The notes beneath the pieces are model-generated. The model was given only the letters and a program-made list of their open reading frames with translations. It did not search any database and was not told the DNA's origin. A stretch of 64,000 nt of DNA, from positions 19,392 through 83,391 of the forward strand of contig JBBRAF010000009.1 of assembly GCA_038207045.1 (NCBI GenBank). The letters are read 5' to 3'. Source of the stretch: Chthoniobacterales bacterium. Its GTDB lineage: Bacteria > Verrucomicrobiota > Verrucomicrobiia > Chthoniobacterales > UBA10450. Position numbers and translations under genes: made by a program. This document shows, in pieces, positions 5,853-38,047 of this stretch. The first letter of the stretch is position 1; the number at the start of each line of letters is the position of its first letter.

Positions 5853-6800
5853 TTAGAGCTTGCCCGCCAGAACGATCGGTCCGGCGGGACTAGATACTCC
5901 ACCCTTGCGTTCCAGACTCACCAGGAATTGCGTGGCCGCAGTGATGGGCAGCCTCGGCCGGAAGACCATTTCTGTTCTTCCGCTTTTGCCGACACTGAAA
6001 ACGCCCGCATCCACCGGCGCTTTGTATTTCGCGTCTGCGATCCAAAGCTGGTAATCCTGTTCGGTGGTCGTCTCCGGGACGTCGGCTGTGCGCAGTACCC
6101 CTTGCTGCTTCGCGCCATCCCATATAATGGTCGCGAGAGCCTGCGGTGCATTCCCTAGTTTTGAATTCAGAGTCGCCACCACAACATTAGCATTCCGCTC
6201 CAGAGCGCTGATTCTGTCCTGCAAGGCGCTTCGATCCGCCGTCAACTTCGCAGCCTCAACCCGCGAAGCATCACTTCGCTCTTCCAATTGGGTGATCTTT
6301 TTGGTCAGGGTTTCGCGCTCTTCCGTCAGCTTTATCACTTGCGCTTGGACGACTTCGGATTGTCGCCGGCTTTCCGCTGCCGTCGCCAGCGCACGATCTC
6401 GCTCCGTTGTTAGCGCGGCCACGCGGCCGCTCAAGTCATTAAGCGCCTTCGACATCTGCGCTCTTCCGAGAAAGAGAATGATGCTCGCGGCGGCGAGACC
6501 CGCAGCGATCGCCCACGGAATCCATGTCGGTTGCTCTCTCACCACGCTTGCCGTCAGCGGCGGCGTCACAGGCTCGATACCAGACCCGACTCGTCGCATG
6601 ACCGTCTCTTTTAACGCGGCTGGAAGCGTCTTCATTTCCGAGGAAAGCGCTACCGTCGCGGCCGCGTCGCGAAGCTCGCGAACCAGCTCGCGCAGTTCAG
6701 CGCTGGATTGCATCGCCGCTTCGAAGTCGCTCGCTTCCGATGCTTCGAGCAGTCCCAGAGCATAGAATGCGGCCTGATCTTGTTGTTCTTCTGGGATCAT
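5853..6800 (-). CDS. anti-sigma factor with an RskA-type C-terminal domain
   Basis: 315 aa. It has an N-terminal anti-sigma helix region, one TM segment (WIPWAIAAGLAAASIILF), a coiled coil, and a C-terminus (IIWDGAKQQGVL...YQLWI...) like anti-sigma-K RskA. It overlaps the sigma gene by 4 bp. Confidence 0.75.
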   Translation of the reverse strand: MIPEEQQDQAAFYALGLLEASEASDFEAAMQSSAELRELVRELRDAAATVALSSEMKTLPAALKETVMRRVGSGIEPVTPPLTASVVREQPTWIPWAIAAGLAAASIILFLGRAQMSKALNDLSGRVAALTTERDRALATAAESRRQSEVVQAQVIKLTEERETLTKKITQLEERSDASRVEAAKLTADRSALQDRISALERNANVVVATLNSKLGNAPQALATIIWDGAKQQGVLRTADVPETTTEQDYQLWIADAKYKAPVDAGVFSVGKSGRTEMVFRPRLPITAATQFLVSLERKGGVSSPAGPIVLAGKL

Positions 6801-7408
6801 CGCATTCGGTCTCTTAACTTCAGCAAGCCGCGTCGGATCCGCGCTTTCACTGTTCCCAAAGGTTGTGCAAGTCGCTCCGCAATTTCCTCGTGAGTCAACG
6901 CGGTGAAGAATGCCAACTCGAGCGCTTCCCTTTGATGCGCCGGCAGTTCAGCTAATGCTGATCGCACCCGAGCTGCCTTCTCCTTTCTATCGGCAATATC
7001 CGACCCACTTTCCGAAATGGATGCAATGTCTTGCCTGACTTCTTCTTCTACGCGCGAGTTTTCTTCCAGGCGGGCACGGCGAGCACGCGCACGCAAACGA
7101 TCGATCACGCGGCTGCGCGTGAGCAGGACAGCCCAGGTAAAAACGCTACTTTGCGCGTGATCGTAGCTGGGGGCACGACGCCAGATCTGCAGGAAGACAT
7201 CCTGAATGGCATCCTGAGCTTCGGTTGCATCACCTAACATCTTATAAGCCAGGGAATACAACGGCGAACCTAAGCGATCAAAGAGCATGGCGAAAGCTGA
7301 GTGATCGCCCCGCGCAGTGCGCGCAATCATCTCAGCATCCGCCTGCTTCTGCGTTGGTTCCTCGCTCATCGCGCGCCTGAGCCAATAGGTGAATTGCGCT
7401 TGGCGCAC
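6797..7408 (-). CDS. ECF (sigma-70 family) RNA polymerase sigma factor
   Basis: 203 aa. Region 2 (DAIQDVFLQIW, FTWAVLLTRSRVIDRLR) and region 4 (REALELAFFTALTHEEIAERL...GTVKARIRRGL) are recognisable. Confidence 0.88.
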   Translation of the reverse strand: MRQAQFTYWLRRAMSEEPTQKQADAEMIARTARGDHSAFAMLFDRLGSPLYSLAYKMLGDATEAQDAIQDVFLQIWRRAPSYDHAQSSVFTWAVLLTRSRVIDRLRARARRARLEENSRVEEEVRQDIASISESGSDIADRKEKAARVRSALAELPAHQREALELAFFTALTHEEIAERLAQPLGTVKARIRRGLLKLRDRMR

Positions 7409-9985: not shown

Positions 9986-11760
9986 GCGCTACCAGCACCG
10001 TTCTGCCTTTGTGAAGGAACTTGGAAACTCACCTCAAACTCCGTCCAATCGTTCGCGGAACTAACGAGACGTAGCTCGCCGCCGTGTAAAAGAGCGAGCT
10101 CGCAGGCAAGGTTCAGACCCAACCCGTGCCCGGCGACGTTACCACCCGCCCCTCCGCGGTTAAATCGCTCGAAAATATGTTCCTGTGCCGCCGGAGGGAT
10201 GGTCGAACCGGTATTTCCAATGCTCAGCGCGACCCCCTCCCGCCGTCGGCGCGTCGCGACGCGAATGCGGCCGCCCGGGCGATTATACTTGCGCGCATTC
10301 TCGATCAGGTTTTGCACGATCAAACTGGTGTAACGCTTTTCTCCCGCGACGTGCAAACCGGGAGAAACCTTTTTCTCAATTTGGACGTCCATCGAATCAG
10401 GCAATGCGCTCAGGTCATCCAGCCATTCATTCACCAATTCGGTCAAATCGACTGAGCTAAAGTCGATACTAAGTCTTCCCGCGTCCATGCGCGACAGCAA
10501 GAGGAGATCATCGATGACTCCCGTCAACCGGTAGGTCTGGTGTAGAAGTGAGGAAAGCTCATCGTAGACCGGCGCGTCAAAATCATTTCGCGCAAGGAGT
10601 GATTCGATGCCGACGCGCAGCACCGTGACCGGGCTCTTGAGCTGGTGCGACGCGTCGGCAGAGAAACGGGAAGAGCGCTTCAGTTCCTGGCTGGTGGTGG
10701 CAAGAGTCGCTTCAGCGCGTTCACGGCCGGCCAGGTTCGCCTCCGACTCGATGGCGAGCTTCTCGACCGGGCGAGACAAGCGCCCCGCTGCAAAGTGGCT
10801 GGCCAGAAAACCGAGGGCCAAAAGTCCGATACCGGCGCCAACGATCTGCGCCTGTAGTTTTCGCCGCCGCGCCGTGGCATTTTGCAGCGAATAAATACAG
10901 ACCTCGTAGGCTGGCGGGAACATTGATTGAGGATTGAGGATGCGAAAGAAGAGAAGGTGCGGCGAACCATCTAACGAGATGGTGAAGTTATTGCGCTCGG
11001 CTGTGCCGCGAAGGATCTGGGCCCCGAGATCGTGACTGAGAGCTTCCACCGCGGGCGCGCTCAGCGCCGGCAAGGAGAGACGACCATTTATCCAAATACC
11101 ACTGCGCATTTTCGATTCTTTCGCTCGCAGTTGCAGCGGTTCAAACCCGACGACAAGCGCGGAAATAACCTCGCCGGTCTCAGTGGAGTAGATGGGCAGT
11201 GTGATGATCTCATCGATGATCTCTCCCCGATCTCTCGAGCTTCGGAAAAAATAACCGATTTGCGTGTTCGTGGGCAGCTTGGCTAAAGTAATTTGCGATT
11301 CGTCCGCCGCGCTCAGTCGGCCGACCTCCGCGGGATTAGGCGGTGAAATAACCGATCCACTGGCATTGAGAAAGCGGTAGAAAGTGGCGGGCAAGGTGAG
11401 GGCACTGGGATCTGAGTTGGGTTCGCCCGATCGTAAGAGATCGCGTAGCTCGTCTTTCGCGCTCGGATAGAGCAGATCCAGCGCGTTATCTTCAAGCGCG
11501 GCGTGTAAACGGGGTTTAAGAACGAGACTGCGGCAGCGTTCGGCCAACACCTGGTGCCGTGCCTCTTCCGCGCGGTCAAGTGAAGTAAGCGCACTGCGGA
11601 ATTCCTGCTGCAAATCGCGCTCGGCGTCAGCGACGGCGTTACGCTGGACGATGTAAACTGCGACCATCGTTAAAATGCCGATGACGAGCATCATCGCTAC
11701 GATCAGCTTCGCCCGAAATGTGGCGACACCGCGTCGATCGAATCGAGGAAACGCGCTCAC
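9982..11760 (-). CDS. sensor histidine kinase (two TM segments, large extracytoplasmic loop, HisKA + HATPase_c)
   Basis: 592 aa. H-box FSADASHQLKSPVTVL, N-box/G-boxes (IENARKYN, GTGLGL-like GHGLGLNLA). Confidence 0.85.
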   Translation of the reverse strand: MSAFPRFDRRGVATFRAKLIVAMMLVIGILTMVAVYIVQRNAVADAERDLQQEFRSALTSLDRAEEARHQVLAERCRSLVLKPRLHAALEDNALDLLYPSAKDELRDLLRSGEPNSDPSALTLPATFYRFLNASGSVISPPNPAEVGRLSAADESQITLAKLPTNTQIGYFFRSSRDRGEIIDEIITLPIYSTETGEVISALVVGFEPLQLRAKESKMRSGIWINGRLSLPALSAPAVEALSHDLGAQILRGTAERNNFTISLDGSPHLLFFRILNPQSMFPPAYEVCIYSLQNATARRRKLQAQIVGAGIGLLALGFLASHFAAGRLSRPVEKLAIESEANLAGRERAEATLATTSQELKRSSRFSADASHQLKSPVTVLRVGIESLLARNDFDAPVYDELSSLLHQTYRLTGVIDDLLLLSRMDAGRLSIDFSSVDLTELVNEWLDDLSALPDSMDVQIEKKVSPGLHVAGEKRYTSLIVQNLIENARKYNRPGGRIRVATRRRREGVALSIGNTGSTIPPAAQEHIFERFNRGGAGGNVAGHGLGLNLACELALLHGGELRLVSSANDWTEFEVSFQVPSQRQNGAGSA

Positions 11761-12401
11761 GGAAAATCCAGATGAACAACGGCGCCGCTCTTAAGATCGA
11801 CAGGTTGCTCACGGGTCGTCCTGCTGTCGAGCCACGCTTTGACAGTGTAGTGGCCGGAAGGCAGTCCGTTGAGACGAAAACGGCCATTGGAATCGGTCGT
11901 GACGAAGTAAGGCGTGTCCAGAACAAGAATGAGTGCACGCATGTGCTCATGGATATCGCAGCGCAAGGTGACCAAACCTGGCGTATCGAAAACCTCCGAT
12001 GGAATCGGCCGCTCATCCGGACGATAGCGACCGAGGTCGAAACGCTTGGCTGGTGAGTAAGAGAAAATATTGTGATAAGTGTCATCCAGGTTGGGAAATT
12101 CCACTCGCGTTCCCGACTGCACCGGTAACAGGCCGGGGTCGAAGATAAGATTCTTTTGTGCCACCTGCTTTGTCGCTAATGACGCAGGCTTCCCGAACGC
12201 GCCCTCCAGGTAAACCACGGCGACGGGAGGGCTGGGCGAGAGAACTCCGCCCTTAGAGACAATCTCGTAACGCTGCGTCACTACCGGCGCCGAACGCTTC
12301 TTGGGTAACTCGACGCGCCCCTCCACCACCGCCTGTCCGCGCGACGACTGCCACGCCACGCCGCATATCAAGACCACCCCCAGGAAGCACCGTATAGTCA
12401 C
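11757..12401 (-). CDS. secreted cupredoxin-like domain protein with a carboxypeptidase-regulatory-like C-terminal domain
   Basis: 214 aa with a signal peptide. The segment VEFPNLDDTYHNIFS...LRCDIHEHM resembles a cupredoxin-like fold, and the C-terminus TDSNGRFRLNGLPSGHYTVKAW is CarboxypepD_reg-like. It overlaps the kinase gene by 4 bp. Confidence 0.5.
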   Translation of the reverse strand: MTIRCFLGVVLICGVAWQSSRGQAVVEGRVELPKKRSAPVVTQRYEIVSKGGVLSPSPPVAVVYLEGAFGKPASLATKQVAQKNLIFDPGLLPVQSGTRVEFPNLDDTYHNIFSYSPAKRFDLGRYRPDERPIPSEVFDTPGLVTLRCDIHEHMRALILVLDTPYFVTTDSNGRFRLNGLPSGHYTVKAWLDSRTTREQPVDLKSGAVVHLDFP

Positions 12402-24183: not shown

Positions 24184-24328
24184 GCCTAACGAGACAAAGC
24201 TCAGTCACAACTCAGGGAAGCGCAAGCCTGCCGGGCCTTGGCGGGCGGCGCTGTTCCCACTAACCGATAACTAGTAATCCTTAACTCACAAGTGTCTCTG
24301 AGCCTTTCGCTGCATCGCCTGGTTACAT
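24184..24328 (-). repeat. attC-like repeat A (145 bp)
   Basis: The plus strand starts GCCTAAC and ends GTTACAT. The inner arms AAAGCTCAG and CTGAGCCTTT are complementary. It aligns over its full length with 26082-26232. Confidence 0.65.
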
Positions 24329-24624: not shown

Positions 24625-24747
24625 CCCTAACGAGACGAAGATCAGAGACGCCTACCGGGGGCGAGCGTAGCTCGTGGATGAAATGGTTGAGTCATCGAAA
24701 ATGTGGATCGTACAGGGGCAAGCGTTCGTTGCATCGCCAGATTAGGC
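24625..24747 (-). repeat. attC-like repeat E (123 bp)
   Basis: It starts CCCTAACGAGACGAAGATCAG and ends CGTTGCATCGCCAGATTAGGC, which is the family right-end motif with A in place of the first G. Confidence 0.55.
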
Positions 24748-25186: not shown

Positions 25187-25310
25187 GCCTAACGAAACGT
25201 AAGATGAGCCACCGCTGGCGGGATCGAGCGCGGCTTGCAATGGGTGTGTTTTCTTAGGAGTAAGCGAGGCGTCGACCCGGCCAGCGGTTGGCTGCAGCGC
25301 TTGCTTAGAT
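25187..25310 (-). repeat. attC-like repeat C (124 bp)
   Basis: It starts GCCTAACGAAACGTAAGATGAGCCACCGCTGGCGGG and ends CCCGGCCAGCGGTTGGCTGCAGCGCTTGCTTAGAT. The arms CCACCGCTGGCGGG and CCCGGCCAGCGGTTGG are complementary. The TAA stop of the upstream ORF lies in the terminal core. Confidence 0.6.
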
Positions 25311-25618: not shown

Positions 25619-25812
25619 ATCTAACGAGCAGTCGGTGTCATTTATGACGTAAAACAAATGCATCGACGTGACGTATGATACGACCTTTCTCCTTGCAGGC
25701 CAGCCTCAGGAAGGCAACCGCCCGCTCATTTCTGACCGGCGGTCTGCTTTTCCGTAATGTGGCCGCCAAGCCGGGGGTTTTAGTTCCATTCTGATTAGCT
25801 GCGTGGTTAGAT
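25619..25812 (-). repeat. attC-like repeat F (194 bp, AT-rich interior)
   Basis: It starts ATCTAACGAG and ends GATTAGCTGCGTGGTTAGAT. Both cores fit the consensus exactly. The TAA stop of ORF 25807.. lies inside GTTAGAT. It is longer than classical attC sites. Confidence 0.5.
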
Positions 25813-26081: not shown

Positions 26082-26232
26082 GTCTAACGAGACATAAGCT
26101 CAGCCACGGCTCAGGTAAACGCAAGGCTGCCGGCTGTGGCGGGAAACACTGTTCCCAATTAACCGATAAACTGATAACCCTCCTCCACTCACGAAGTGCG
26201 TCTGAGCCTCTGGCTGCACCGTCTGGTTAGGT
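26082..26232 (-). repeat. attC-like repeat B (151 bp)
   Basis: It starts GTCTAACGAGACATAAGCTCAG and ends CTGAGCCTCTGGCTGCACCGTCTGGTTAGGT. The cores fit the consensus. The TAA stop of ORF 26227.. lies inside the core. Confidence 0.65.
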
Positions 26233-26656
26233 CATTCGTCGTCGGAGGACTTGGGTGGAGTCACACGCAGAAGGCTCGCAGAGGAGTCGCTTGGCTGAAA
26301 GCCCAACGTGACGTCGCACGAGTAGAAGACGCGGCCCACGGGCCGGGTCGCTCACCGAAAACCGGAGTTCTAGATCGAGCTTATTGCCGTCCCAGCGCTT
26401 TGGCTCGGAGAGACAGTGAAGGTCGGGTTGTGTCGCGGTCACGCGGCCGAGCGCGTTCTGCGTGTAATCGGGCAGAGTGATACGGGTGGCAGAGGCACCT
26501 GCTAGATAGAACACGTAAATCTCCAGACTGTGTCTCGCACCTACGATGCGAACCTCGTAATGGCCATCTTTGGAGCGGCCGCCATCGACCAAAGCTTTCT
26601 TTCGCACCCGCTGAGGTGGCGAACGCGAATGTGAACATGAGAACAAGTGCTCGCAT
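26227..26656 (-). pseudogene. cassette gene: secreted protein of unknown function, frameshifted near 26590-26600
   Basis: The signal peptide MRALVLMFTFAFATSAGAKE is in one frame. The body KALVDGGRSKDGHYEVRIVGARHSLEIYVFYLAG... is in another. The switch occurs at GAAAGAAAGC. Confidence 0.5.
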
Positions 26657-26659
26657 CAG

Positions 26660-26695
26660 ACCTAATCAATTAGACGAAAGGTCGTAATTAATTGA
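26660..26695. repeat. short hairpin with an attC-like end (ACCTAAT) immediately upstream of the first cassette ORF
   Basis: TCAATTAGAC-GAAAG-GTCGTAATTAATTGA is an imperfect hairpin. On the minus strand it reads ...TTCGTCTAATTGATTAGGTCTGATG, which resembles the family end TTCGTCTCGTTAGG. Confidence 0.35.
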
Positions 26696-26718
26696 AGCGT
26701 AGGAGAGCTTCGGGACAA

Positions 26719-27450
26719 CTACAGAACGTTCTTGCCGCGGCCGGTCACGACCTTTACGAATTCTTCCACCTCTGGAAAGGCCTTGTCTCCATTCCAGGCA
26801 ACCCAAAACGGAGTGATAACTGGGGGACTTACCGGGCGAAAGACGACATTCGCGTGAGGAAGCCTTTTCGCCAGCTCGGGCAGAAGAGCGACTCCCAGGC
26901 CGGTCGCGACTGCGTGCAATACCGGCCGGTCGAACTCGACTTCCTGCAGAACCTTAGGTCGATATCCGGCTTTCGCGCAGCTTTCAGTCAACCACCTGCG
27001 ATATCCCGGTCGGGCCGTCTCCGAGATGCCGACAAAGAACATCGGTTCCAATTCTTTGAGTTTGACGGTGGATCGGCGTGCCAAATGACTCTGCTTCGGC
27101 AAAGCGACAAACGTCTTATACGCTGCCACGGGATGGGCTTTGAGGCCGCTTCGTTCCATGACCTGAGGCGATCCAACAAAGCCCAGGTCGAGACGGCCAT
27201 CCGCGAGTCTGGACAACTGCTCGCCACAGGTGAGATCGAAGAGGGGAACCGGTATGGCGGGAAAAGTCGCCTGGAATGTGCCAATGCTGGCAGGAAGTAA
27301 ATCGTGCACCAAATCCGCCACGTACCCAATTCTTAAGCCGCGCTTTTCTTCCCGATCCAGTGTGCGAACCGACTCCACGATTTCCTTCCCATGAGCAATT
27401 ACCCGTCGTGCGTCGGCGAGAAAGGACTTCCCCGCCGCGGTCAGGGTAAC
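26719..27450 (-). pseudogene. LysR-family regulator lacking its N-terminal HTH domain (5'-truncated)
   Basis: The substrate-binding domain is intact (LRIGYV...LDLGFV...). Similarity extends upstream only to ...VTLTAAGKSFLADARRVI. The wHTH (about 60 aa) is missing, and the sequence there belongs to another gene on the opposite strand. Confidence 0.7.
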
Positions 27451-27454
27451 GCAA

Positions 27455-27988
27455 ATGCGGGAAGAAGCTTCAGCGTTCGACCCGGCCAGCAGCAGCGTGT
27501 TCGCCTGGGCAGTGATGATCGTTCGCTCCTACGCGGTAGAGTGGTTACGCCGGCGCGGCAAGGTCGTTTTTCGAAAATCTCACATCGCGGCGGCGGGATC
27601 GTTCAATCTGGAACGCCAACGCGATGATAGCCAAAAGGGGAGCGACGGCCAGGCCGCGCTGGCGTTGCTCTCACCGGAACAGTGGGAGGTTCTCGAGCTT
27701 GCGTTTTTCCAGGGTATCTCACCCAGCGAAATATCCGAGGCGCTCACCCTCCCCGTTATCACGGTGAAGGCGAGGATTCGTTCCGGTCTGCTTTGCTTGC
27801 GTGAGGCTTTAGCCGCGTCTGAGCAGGAGTCGCCATTTGCGGTCCCGCGTTCAGGTATCTTCCGACGCGGGACCCAGCTCGTTAGCGGACGTAGGAGGGA
27901 TGGAACTCGGCTCATGCTGGACATCTGCGCACTCTTGTGGTCGAATCTCGCGGTGCGCGTGAATTCTTTTCAGAGCCGCGGTGACTAA
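27455..27988 (+). pseudogene. ECF sigma factor lacking regions 2.1-2.2 (5'-truncated)
   Basis: It aligns by eye with the sigma at 6797-7408, starting at ...SSVFAWAVMIVRSYAVEWLRRR (region 2.4) and running through region 4 (WEVLELAFFQGISPSEISEAL..ITVKARIRSGL). About 70 N-terminal residues are absent. Confidence 0.65.
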
Positions 27989-27990
27989 GC

Positions 27991-28404
27991 ATGAGAACTG
28001 ATCTAACTATCCGCGGTCGCCCGGTCACGATGGTCGCTGCCAAAGAGCGAACAATCGTCGAGAATGGAGCCTTGTTTGTGGCGCATCAGCGGCTCCGGAA
28101 AACGATTCGTCCAAATGCCGTTCGACTTCAGTCGCTCCTCAAGAACCACGACGAATCCACTTCCACCTTGCGCACCTCGGTAGGAGAGTTCGCCTTCAAA
28201 ACCACAGGACTCGGCTGCCAGCTCGAACTCATCCTCGGGAGGGTGCGTCGCGCTCTCGGTTTTTATCACTCGAGTGAGGCCGTGCTGCACGCGCTGAAAA
28301 GAGGCCGAACGGGTTTTCGCGCGTGGGATTCCTTGGAACGCGTAGCGACTGCTCGGCAAATCAATACACTTGGCCGCTGGAACAAAACGGAGAAGACTGC
28401 ATGA
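27991..28404 (+). CDS. hypothetical protein, translationally coupled to the neighbours on both sides
   Basis: 137 aa. It starts 2 nt after the sigma stop, and its TGA overlaps the desaturase ATG (ATGA at 28401-28404). I recognise no motif in it. Confidence 0.45.
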   Translation: MRTDLTIRGRPVTMVAAKERTIVENGALFVAHQRLRKTIRPNAVRLQSLLKNHDESTSTLRTSVGEFAFKTTGLGCQLELILGRVRRALGFYHSSEAVLHALKRGRTGFRAWDSLERVATARQINTLGRWNKTEKTA

Positions 28405-29402
28405 GTAACGCTTCGGTGATATCTACGCCCGAGTGTGAGGCCGGCGCGCTGAAAGAACGTACTTTCTTTCGGCTACCTCTGGATCGCATTAACTGGTTAA
28501 CCAGTTCTTTCCTTATAGGCACGCTTATCCTGACTCTAACGGCGGTCCCTCTTTACCTATACTATTTTGGACTCGACTGGTTCCAGGTAGCTCTTTTCTT
28601 TGCCATGCTGGCAGCCTGTGGGTTCAGCATCTCGTTAGGCTATCACCGTCTGTTTTCCCATATCGCTTTTCAAGCAAGCTGGCCGATCCGGCTTTTCACC
28701 TTGATCTTCGGAGCCGGCGCTTTCGAGAACTCGGTTCTGATGTGGGCGAGCGAGCACCGACGGCATCACAAACATGTCGATCATGATGAAGATCCTTACA
28801 GTATCTCAAAAGGATTCTTCTACGCGCACATCGGTTGGTTGATATTCAAGCTTAGTCCGGAGCCGCCTTACGATAACGTTGCGGACCTGCAGAAGGACAA
28901 ACTCATCCGCTTGCAGGATCGGCACGTGCACTCCATTGCGGTGGTCGTCAGCTTCCTGTTCCCGGCGGCGTTGGGGTATTTCTGGAATGGTTGGGAGGGA
29001 GCGCTCGGCGCCTTCCTGATTGCCGGTGTCGCGCGAATAGTTGTGCTGCAGCACTGCACTTTCTTGATCAACAGCGCATGTCACACCATGGGCCGACAGC
29101 CCTATTCCACCAAGTGCAGCGCGCGCGACTCCTTGTTTCTTGCCTTGTTCACTTTCGGGGAAGGGTATCATAACTATCACCACGAATTTCAGCACGACTA
29201 TCGCAATGGCGTGAAGCCCTGGCAGGTGGATCCCACTAAATGGATCATCTGGACGTTGGCGAAGCTCGGACTTGCCCGAGGTCTCCGACGTGTTTGCGTG
29301 GATAAGATTCAAGCGGCAGAACGTGCCACTCAAGCCAGCCGATTGACGGAGCGAAAAATGCCGACCTCCCAGGTGAATCCCGCAGGGACGTTCTCCTGTT
29401 AA
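28401..29402 (+). CDS. acyl-CoA (delta-9 type) fatty acid desaturase
   Basis: Three histidine boxes (HRLFSH, HRRHHKHVDHDEDP, GEGYHNYHHEFQHDY) and four TM segments. The start is placed at the internal ATG MSNASV. Confidence 0.85.
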   Translation: MSNASVISTPECEAGALKERTFFRLPLDRINWLTSSFLIGTLILTLTAVPLYLYYFGLDWFQVALFFAMLAACGFSISLGYHRLFSHIAFQASWPIRLFTLIFGAGAFENSVLMWASEHRRHHKHVDHDEDPYSISKGFFYAHIGWLIFKLSPEPPYDNVADLQKDKLIRLQDRHVHSIAVVVSFLFPAALGYFWNGWEGALGAFLIAGVARIVVLQHCTFLINSACHTMGRQPYSTKCSARDSLFLALFTFGEGYHNYHHEFQHDYRNGVKPWQVDPTKWIIWTLAKLGLARGLRRVCVDKIQAAERATQASRLTERKMPTSQVNPAGTFSC

Positions 29403-37921: not shown

Positions 37922-38047
37922 GACTAACGAGACCAAGCTCGGCGCATGCGGAAGTGGATGCTCATTGACTGCTTTAGATGCTCCCTGCGCTTCCTGAAAG
38001 TGAGGATGCGACGAGGAAATTCCGAAGCCGCCTCTTATCAGTTACCA
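37922..38047 (-). repeat. isolated attC-like repeat G
   Basis: It starts GACTAACGAGACCAAGCTCGG, the same left-end family as 24184/26082, one nt after the sigma TGA. Candidate right ends are CCGCCTCTTATCAGTTACCA (38047) or GACTGCTTTAGATG (37979). Confidence 0.45.

What the first reader, a model, noticed from the sequence alone, without database searches (positions are those of the whole stretch)
26657..27990. No integrase where one is expected; instead two 5'-truncated genes abut head-to-head
If the cassettes are transcribed on the minus strand, attI and intI should lie just above 26.66 kb. What is there instead is the following:
- a 62-bp spacer with a hairpin and an attC-like end (..TTCGTCTAATTGATTAGGTCTG ATG);
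- a LysR gene lacking its N-terminal wHTH, with similarity ending at ..VTLTAAGKSF near 27450;
- starting at 27455 on the other strand, an ECF sigma lacking regions 2.1-2.2.

The two truncated genes meet with essentially no intergenic DNA. That pattern fits a deletion or rearrangement that removed both promoters and both 5' ends. The lost segment could have included more, conceivably the integrase/attI module.
Basis: partly seen in the sequence, partly recalled or inferred. Interest (0 to 1): 0.6.

Follow-up and report, generated by a model that had tools for sequence, protein, structure and literature searches.

The report
Small deletion scar between two regulators
A 561-bp deletion removed the shared promoter region and both gene starts of a back-to-back LysR regulator and ECF sigma factor pair; it is an ordinary gene-killing deletion and did not remove an integron integrase, and the neighbouring cassette array is one of several integrase-less arrays in this genome.

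Summary
The minus-strand LysR gene (26722-27450) has only the effector-binding domain. The plus-strand ECF sigma gene (27455-27988) has only the end of region 2 and region 4. They meet at 27451/27452.

Three metagenome contigs (L041, L042, L027; 82-87% nucleotide identity) carry the intact divergent pair. Against L041 the window lacks exactly 561 bp: ECF codons 1-79, a 165-bp intergenic region and LysR codons 1-53. The joint has 2 bp of microhomology (GC).

The further suggestion that intI/attI was lost in this deletion is not supported. The intact interval holds nothing else, and more distant relatives keep the same divergent pair.

The LysR remnant has no stop or indel over 243 codons and dN/dS of 0.10 against L041, so the deletion looks recent.

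The five minus-strand attC sites below 26.66 kb fit a CALIN (attC cluster lacking an integrase). No IntI is present in this 89%-complete assembly. Seven of 25 genomes of the same genus have IntI, at other chromosomal places, with the same attC end motifs. The genome holds about a dozen further attC-motif clusters, several at contig ends.

Interest is low.

The parts
26657..26718 (-). 62-bp spacer between the LysR stop codon and the first cassette ORF. It has two small hairpins and the palindrome CTAAT-TG-ATTAG. It is not demonstrably attI or attC.
   Evidence: Homology to L041 ends at the LysR stop.
26719..27450 (-). LysR-family regulator remnant: codons 55-297 plus the stop codon, effector-binding domain only. 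The wHTH (codons 1-53) is deleted. The first possible in-frame start is GTG at 27378.
   Evidence: Pfam PF03466 only. NCBIfam profiles start at about position 55. 89% amino-acid identity to the full-length L041 LysR with no indel or stop, dN/dS 0.10.
27451..27452 (.). Deletion joint. The two bases GC are shared by both flanks (2-bp microhomology). 561 bp are missing relative to L041 positions 1485-2045.
   Evidence: blastn breakpoints and in-register comparisons.
27455..27988 (+). ECF sigma factor remnant: from region 2.3 through the linker to region 4. Codons 1-79 (regions 2.1-2.2) are deleted. There is also a 21-nt in-frame gap in the linker (about 27632) and a +1 nt at about 27833 that shifts the C-terminal tail. 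The ATG at 27455 replaces GTG (Val) of the intact gene.
27991..28404 (+). Conserved 137-aa ORF of unknown function between the sigma gene and the desaturase, possibly the sigma factor's partner. It has no family match.
   Evidence: 79% amino-acid identity to the 143-aa gene of L041, dN/dS 0.33. No Pfam or NCBIfam hit.
28398..29402 (+). Fatty-acid desaturase, last gene of the former sigma/ORF/desaturase unit. It is syntenic with LysR in same-genus genomes.
   Evidence: PF00487. 80-86% amino-acid identity in G016, G015, G008 and L041.
26082..26232 (-). attC-like site S1 (ACCTAAC...GTTAGAC)
25619..25812 (-). attC-like site S2 (ATCTAAC...GTTAGAT)
25187..25310 (-). attC-like site S3 (ATCTAAG...GTTAGGC), the strongest hairpin (z -4.8)
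24625..24747 (-). attC-like site S4 (GCCTAAT...GTTAGGG)
24184..24328 (-). attC-like site S5 (ATGTAAC...GTTAGGC), related in sequence to S1

Best explanation
The ancestor carried a conserved divergent gene pair. A LysR-type regulator was read leftwards. An ECF sigma factor, a small unknown ORF and a fatty-acid desaturase were read rightwards. About 165 bp of shared promoter DNA lay between them.

In this lineage a single illegitimate (microhomology-level, GC) deletion of 561 bp removed three things: that intergenic region, the first 53 codons of LysR (its DNA-binding winged helix) and the first 79 codons of the sigma factor (regions 2.1-2.2, needed to bind core RNA polymerase and to help open the -10 element). 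Both regulators are therefore dead, and the sigma/ORF/desaturase unit has lost its upstream promoter. That consequence is inferred, not shown.

The deletion is evolutionarily recent, because the LysR remnant is still an intact frame with a strong purifying-selection signature inherited from before the event.

The deletion has nothing to do with the integron. The cassette array that starts right after the LysR stop codon is an integrase-less attC cluster (CALIN). It is of the same attC type as the integrase-linked arrays of the genus, and it is one of several such clusters in this genome.
For: 1. Truncations: and alignments to full-length proteins.
2. Intact reference loci: L027 and L041/L042. 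L041 1-1484 equals window 28917-27451 at 85.3% identity, and L041 2046-2774 equals window 27452-26724 at 87.1%. The missing 561 bp are 236 nt of ECF, 165 nt of intergenic DNA and 160 nt of LysR.
3. The joint has only 2 bp (GC) shared between the flanks.
4. The divergent ECF/LysR pair also occurs in L043-L047, where LysR is 70-72% identical.
5. LysR remnant: 243 codons with no stop or indel, dN/dS 0.10 and dS 0.52. Neighbouring genes give 0.28-0.33.
6. No IntI: the best TIGR02249 hit is 73 bits against a cut-off of 265, from a XerC/D-like protein on contig C18. Nothing is found on contig C9. Only three tyrosine recombinases are found in the genome.
7. Seven of 25 same-genus genomes have IntI. 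The five IntI loci whose flanks were examined (in four of those genomes) map to G000 contigs C1, C8, C22, C25 and C39, not C9.
8. Their arrays share the end motifs GTCTCGTTAGRY and RYCTAACCAGGC with the window's sites.
9. G000 holds 14 further clusters of two or more same-strand copies of the attC end motif, several at contig ends.
10. Both flanks are unique in the genome, and the deleted piece is not assembled elsewhere.
Against: The junction 22-mer has no independent occurrence in the metagenome or genome collections.

The closest intact references are only 85-87% identical, so the ancestral state of this exact lineage is inferred.

The very low dN/dS of the LysR remnant could also mean that it is still used.

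The attC sites were recognised by motif, hairpin and comparison with relatives, not with the IntegronFinder covariance model.
Confidence: 0.85

Rival explanations
1. Assembly artefact. The genome really has the intact pair, and the assembler or binning collapsed 561 bp or joined two strain variants.
For: This is a metagenome-assembled genome in 60 contigs. Reads could not be checked. The window shows other frameshifts (and earlier notes), which could reflect sequence quality.
Against: Assembler mis-joins arise at shared repeats. Here the flanks share only 2 bp, are unique in the genome, and lie in the same order and orientation as in the intact locus, with similar divergence from L041 on both sides (85.3% and 87.1%). 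The missing segment is not assembled anywhere else in the genome.
Confidence: 0.07
2. One reading: a larger rearrangement removed an intI/attI module that once sat between the array and the sigma gene.
For: The cassettes are on the minus strand, so an integrase would be expected on the high-coordinate side. No integrase is present.
Against: The intact interval in L041, L042 and L027 is only 561 bp and holds nothing but the two gene starts and 165 bp of intergenic DNA. The LysR gene itself lies between the array and the joint, and it is collinear with L041 up to its stop codon. No intI remnant is found on C9 at E <= 0.001. In the four same-genus genomes whose IntI flanks were examined, intI lies at other loci.
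Confidence: 0.03
3. The remnants are retained, working short proteins: an HTH-less LysR effector-binding domain translated from GTG 27378, and/or a region-4-only sigma fragment from ATG 27455. They would act as ligand sinks, or as decoys for an anti-sigma or partner protein.
For: The LysR remnant is an intact 243-codon frame with dN/dS 0.10. A purine-rich GGGAAGGAA lies just upstream of GTG 27378. A new ATG sits exactly at the joint where the intact gene has GTG.
Against: The selection signal is explained equally well by a recent deletion. No promoter-like site is found in 26600-28500. The sigma remnant carries a further 1-nt shift in its tail. No second example of such truncated forms was found: the hits that lack HTH_1 are contig-end fragments or were not examined.
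Confidence: 0.05

Closest known systems
LysR-type transcriptional regulators (LTTR), divergently transcribed from their target operon
   Same: The effector-binding domain (PF03466) is present. Full-length orthologues of 297 aa start MELRHLRYFV... and are divergent from the neighbouring operon, which is the classic LTTR layout.
   Different: The N-terminal winged helix-turn-helix (PF00126) and the promoter are deleted here, so this copy cannot bind DNA.
ECF (group IV) sigma-70 factors
   Same: Regions 2.3-2.4, the linker and region 4 are present. The remnant is 70% identical to the 241-aa sigma factor of L041 and L027.
   Different: It lacks regions 2.1-2.2 (no PF04542 hit), so by established knowledge of sigma-70 domain function it should not bind core RNA polymerase. 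The tail is frame-shifted relative to L041.
CALIN: clusters of attC sites lacking an integron integrase (Cury et al. 2016, PMC4889954)
   Same: There are five same-strand attC-like imperfect hairpins with inverted RYYYAAC/GTTRRRY cores. Each follows a small ORF that mostly has no known family. No intI lies within 10 kb or anywhere in the assembly. Five sites is the average CALIN size reported in the paper.
   Different: The sites are long (123-194 nt). They were not scored with the IntegronFinder model. The array abuts the stop codon of a conserved chromosomal gene.
Complete chromosomal integrons of the same genus (IntI over the TIGR02249 cut-off in 7 of 25 genomes)
   Same: The attC end motifs are the same.
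   Different: They have intI and a recognisable shared attI region ending in ACTCGTTAGRY. The window has neither.

Membership tests
LysR-type transcriptional regulator | N-terminal winged helix-turn-helix (Pfam HTH_1, PF00126) | tested here: not met
   No HTH_1 hit on the whole open frame. NCBIfam LysR profiles align only from about position 55. Orthologues carry 53-54 more N-terminal residues.
LysR-type transcriptional regulator | C-terminal effector-binding domain (PF03466) | tested here: met
   E 3.1e-33, profile positions 3-205 of 209.
ECF sigma-70 factor | Sigma-2 domain (regions 2.1-2.4, PF04542) | tested here: not met
   No PF04542 hit. The remnant starts at residue 81-83 of full-length relatives.
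ECF sigma-70 factor | Sigma-4 domain (PF04545 / PF08281) | tested here: met
   E 1.8e-9 and 3.9e-7. TIGR02937 scores 45.3 bits against a cut-off of 42.9.
Complete integron | Integron integrase (tyrosine recombinase with the IntI-specific segment; TIGR02249 over its cut-off) next to the array | tested here: not met
   Six-frame search of the whole assembly: best hit 73 bits against a cut-off of 265, on contig C18, XerC/D-like, with model positions 167-232 unmatched. Nothing is found on C9. The assembly is 89% complete, so absence from the organism is not proven.
Complete integron | attI site upstream of the first cassette | tested here: inconclusive
   The spacer 26657-26718 has a CTAAT/ATTAG palindrome, but it has no GTT core and does not resemble the attI regions shared by related integrons.
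CALIN | At least two attC sites (inverted R''/R' cores closing an imperfect hairpin) on one strand | tested here: met
   Five sites between 24184 and 26232. In four of the five the R''/R' cores pair in the MFE fold (RNA energy parameters; S5 does not, z -0.26). The end motifs are identical to those of IntI-linked arrays in relatives. The IntegronFinder covariance model was not available.
CALIN | No integron integrase within 4 kb | tested here: met

The most novel reading that the evidence does not exclude
The HTH-less LysR effector-binding domain (from GTG 27378, with a purine-rich Shine-Dalgarno-like run just upstream), and perhaps the region-4-only sigma fragment that gained an ATG exactly at the joint, are kept as working stand-alone proteins such as a ligand sink or a partner decoy. 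This would explain the intact 243-codon frame and dN/dS of 0.10.
Probability: 0.05. Interest if true: 0.45.

Novelty: already known. Interest (0 to 1): 0.15.

Why it matters
It matters little beyond annotation.

- Both ORFs should be flagged as pseudogene remnants, not as a 'LysR substrate-binding protein' and a 'sigma-70 family protein'.
- The desaturase has probably lost its dedicated regulation.
- The cassette array should be treated as a CALIN whose missing integrase needs no special explanation at this joint.
- The case gives a dated example of a microhomology-level deletion in an uncultured Verrucomicrobiota-like lineage.
- It also shows that this genus carries integrons with long attC sites and a shared attI region. 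That may be useful for anyone cataloguing integrons outside Proteobacteria.

Tried and rejected
- Same-genus genomes (41 searched) gave only 50%-identical LysR orthologues, and those are paired with an OsmC-like gene instead of the ECF gene. They are useful for the length of LysR but not for the joint.
- The best ECF hits in those genomes turned out to be orthologues of the window's other ECF gene at 6.8-7.4 kb.
- A global MAFFT alignment of the joint misplaced the left flank. I replaced it with in-register comparisons.
- My first dN/dS run used wrong frames and was corrected.
- A home-made attC scanner was too strict and found only one of the five sites. I dropped it in favour of motif clustering and comparison with IntI-linked arrays.
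- An IntI-mediated deletion between secondary GTT/GWT sites was considered. The breakpoints in L041 (CTTGC|ACGAA and GGCAGG|GCGTCA) do not carry such sites on both sides, so it was rejected.
- I looked for the L041 downstream gene (DUF3833) at the far end of the array, as an 'empty-site' test. It lies on another contig (C7), so no empty site could be reconstructed.
- An exact search for the junction 22-mer in public metagenome and genome collections found nothing.

Full report
**What is in the sequence**

On the minus strand an open frame runs from 27528 down to the stop codon at 26719-26721. Only the part below 27450 looks like a LysR protein. Pfam finds the LysR substrate-binding domain (PF03466, E 3e-33) and no HTH_1. 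More than twenty NCBIfam LysR models align the first remnant residue (V of VTLTAAGKSF) to about profile position 55. No ATG, GTG or TTG lies in frame between the upstream stop and GTG 27378.

On the plus strand an ORF runs from ATG 27455 to 27988. Pfam finds Sigma70_r4 and r4_2 but no Sigma70_r2. NCBIfam ECF models start at positions 45-71.

**What was lost**

A search of the large protein collection with the sigma fragment found a 241-aa relative (P0002, 69% identity) on a 2.4-kb JGI metagenome contig, L027. A search with the LysR fragment found a full-length 297-aa relative (P0021, 90% identity) on two Logan contigs from two runs, L041 and L042.

All three contigs carry an intact divergent pair. 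LysR, with its complete MELRHLRYFV... wHTH, points one way. A full-length ECF sigma factor, a small ORF and the desaturase point the other way. In L041, L042 and L027 the gap between them is 165 bp.

The blastn breakpoints for L041 are as follows:
- L041 1-1484 matches window 28917-27451 at 85.3% identity.
- L041 2046-2774 matches window 27452-26724 at 87.1% identity.

L027 gives the same breakpoints. The window therefore lacks L041 1485-2045, which is 561 bp:
- 236 nt of ECF (codons 1-79)
- 165 nt of intergenic DNA
- 160 nt of LysR (codons 1-53)

In-register comparison shows that the two flanks share only the dinucleotide GC at 27451-27452. This is a blunt, microhomology-level joint typical of illegitimate recombination.

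BLASTP of P0002 against an ECF factor with a recognised sigma-2 domain, and alignment with three more ECF factors, place the remnant's first residue just after the conserved regions 2.1-2.2.

**The pair is conserved**

The same ECF/LysR head-to-head layout is found on further contigs whose LysR is 70-72% identical (L043-L047). By the gene calls the intergenic gaps there are 55-196 bp. Their ECF factors are 43-45% identical to that of L041.

In three genomes of the window's own genus, a 50%-identical LysR is divergent from an OsmC-like gene, followed by the same desaturase at 80-85% amino-acid identity. The LysR-desaturase neighbourhood is therefore old chromosomal context and not part of a mobile element.

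**Age and state of the remnants**

Against L041 the LysR remnant has 243 aligned codons with no indel and no stop. It shows 89% amino-acid identity, dS 0.52 and dN/dS 0.10. The two intact neighbours give 0.28-0.33. Most of the divergence therefore accumulated under selection, and I infer that the deletion is recent on that scale.

The sigma remnant shows dN/dS 0.57, a 21-nt in-frame gap in the linker and one extra base near 27833. That base shifts the tail after region 4 and extends the ORF to 27988.

No second copy of either gene exists in the assembly. The deleted segment has no close match elsewhere in the assembly.

**Is it an assembly artefact?**

Several points argue against an artefact:
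- The two flanks are unique in the genome.
- They share only 2 bp.
- They keep the order, orientation and similar divergence seen in the intact locus.

The junction 22-mer was not found in the public metagenome or genome collections, so there is no independent sighting either.

**The integron question**

Five attC-like sites lie on the minus strand between 24184 and 26232. Each follows a small ORF. For four of the five, the RYYYAAC-like and GTTRRRY cores pair in the predicted fold (RNA energy parameters) to close a long imperfect hairpin. The ORFs have no family match, apart from one DUF1761.

The assembled genome is 3.08 Mb in 60 contigs and 89% complete. It has no integron integrase:
- The best TIGR02249 hit is 73 bits against a cut-off of 265. 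It belongs to a XerC/D-like protein on contig C18, in which the IntI-specific middle of the model is unmatched.
- Only three tyrosine recombinases exist in the assembly.
- Nothing is found on the window's contig.

Seven of 25 other genomes of the genus do have IntI over the cut-off. I examined the flanks of five IntI loci in four of those genomes. They correspond to G000 contigs C1, C8, C22, C25 and C39, never C9. Contig C39 ends about 200 bp past the last gene shared with the flank of one such integron.

The arrays of those integrons have the same end motifs as the window's sites, GTCTCGTTAGRY and RYCTAACCAGGC. Their attI regions share a pattern ending in ACTCGTTAGRY, which the window's 62-bp spacer does not reproduce.

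The genome holds 14 further clusters of two or more same-strand copies of the attC end motif. Several sit at contig ends: C16, C24, C11, C53 and C55.

The array here fits the published definition of a CALIN. CALINs are more numerous than complete integrons and average five attC sites. In 95% of cases they have no intI pseudogene nearby (PMC4889954). They may also arise by cassette insertion at secondary genomic sites (bioRxiv 10.1101/2022.09.11.507474). An integrase is therefore not 'expected' at 26.7 kb. In any case LysR stands between the array and the joint, and it is collinear with L041 up to its stop codon.

**Mechanism and consequences**

The following are inferred from established knowledge of these families:
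- Without its wHTH the LysR protein cannot bind DNA.
- Without regions 2.1-2.2 the sigma fragment should not bind core RNA polymerase.
- With the intergenic region gone, both promoters are lost. No sigma-70-like promoter is predicted between 26600 and 28500, although the scan does not cover other promoter types.
- The small ORF and the desaturase downstream remain intact but have probably lost their dedicated control.

**Verdict**

This is a real, small and probably recent pseudogenising deletion in a conserved divergent regulator pair. It is unrelated to the absence of an integrase next to an ordinary CALIN. Interest is low.

The organism is probably a member of the Verrucomicrobiota, judging only by the source names of the nearest database proteins.

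Noticed in passing
L041 versus L027 (LysR codons about 1-10; L041 about 1913): The two metagenome contigs are 100% identical from the desaturase through the ECF gene, the intergenic region and the first 9-10 LysR codons. They then drop to about 61% identity for the rest of LysR. Either LysR alleles are swapped by recombination at the conserved HTH-coding start, or one contig is a chimera joined at that conserved stretch.
   Followed up: partly
window 26227-26656 (-): The first cassette ORF has its signal peptide (MRALVLMFTFAFATSAGA...) in one frame and the body in another. The switch is near GCGAAAGAAAGC (about 26600). This is a frameshift or a sequencing error.
   Followed up: no
G000 contig C15, about 11577-11790 (-): A second, much shorter LysR remnant lies here. 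It covers only the last 70 or so codons of a paralogue (43-71% identity to the window's LysR C-terminus) and is itself frame-shifted.
   Followed up: partly
G000 contigs C16 (56.5-58.6 kb and 64.7-65.7 kb), C24 (0.3-2.5 kb), C11 (87.0-88.1 kb), C37, C53, C55, C35, C17: These are further same-strand clusters of the attC end motif TCTCGTTAGRY. Several run into contig ends. The genome probably holds more cassette arrays, and an integrase could lie in an assembly gap.
   Followed up: partly
G008:C16:142182-143062 (locus L034/L036): A same-genus genome has an intI interrupted by a TGA or frame change, next to an array of at least 15 attC-motif sites spanning about 10 kb. It lies on the same contig as its LysR-desaturase locus but 54 kb away.
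   Followed up: no
L028, L030, L031, L036-L039 (upstream of intI in relatives): The attI regions of the genus's integrons share a recognisable pattern: TTATACGRAA..., then an AT-rich inverted repeat, then ACTCGTTAGRY. This could serve as an attI signature for this lineage.
   Followed up: partly
window 37922-38047 (-): An isolated copy of the attC R' motif (GTCTCGTTAGTC) lies about 11 kb above the array. Its structure was not analysed.
   Followed up: no
window 5860-7390 (-): A second, intact ECF sigma gene with a downstream partner gene is the true orthologue of the ECF genes found in same-genus genomes.
   Followed up: no
G000 contig C39 end (19984): The contig stops about 200 bp after the last gene that is syntenic with the flank of an IntI-bearing integron in G014:C78. 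This is a possible location of an unassembled integron.
   Followed up: no
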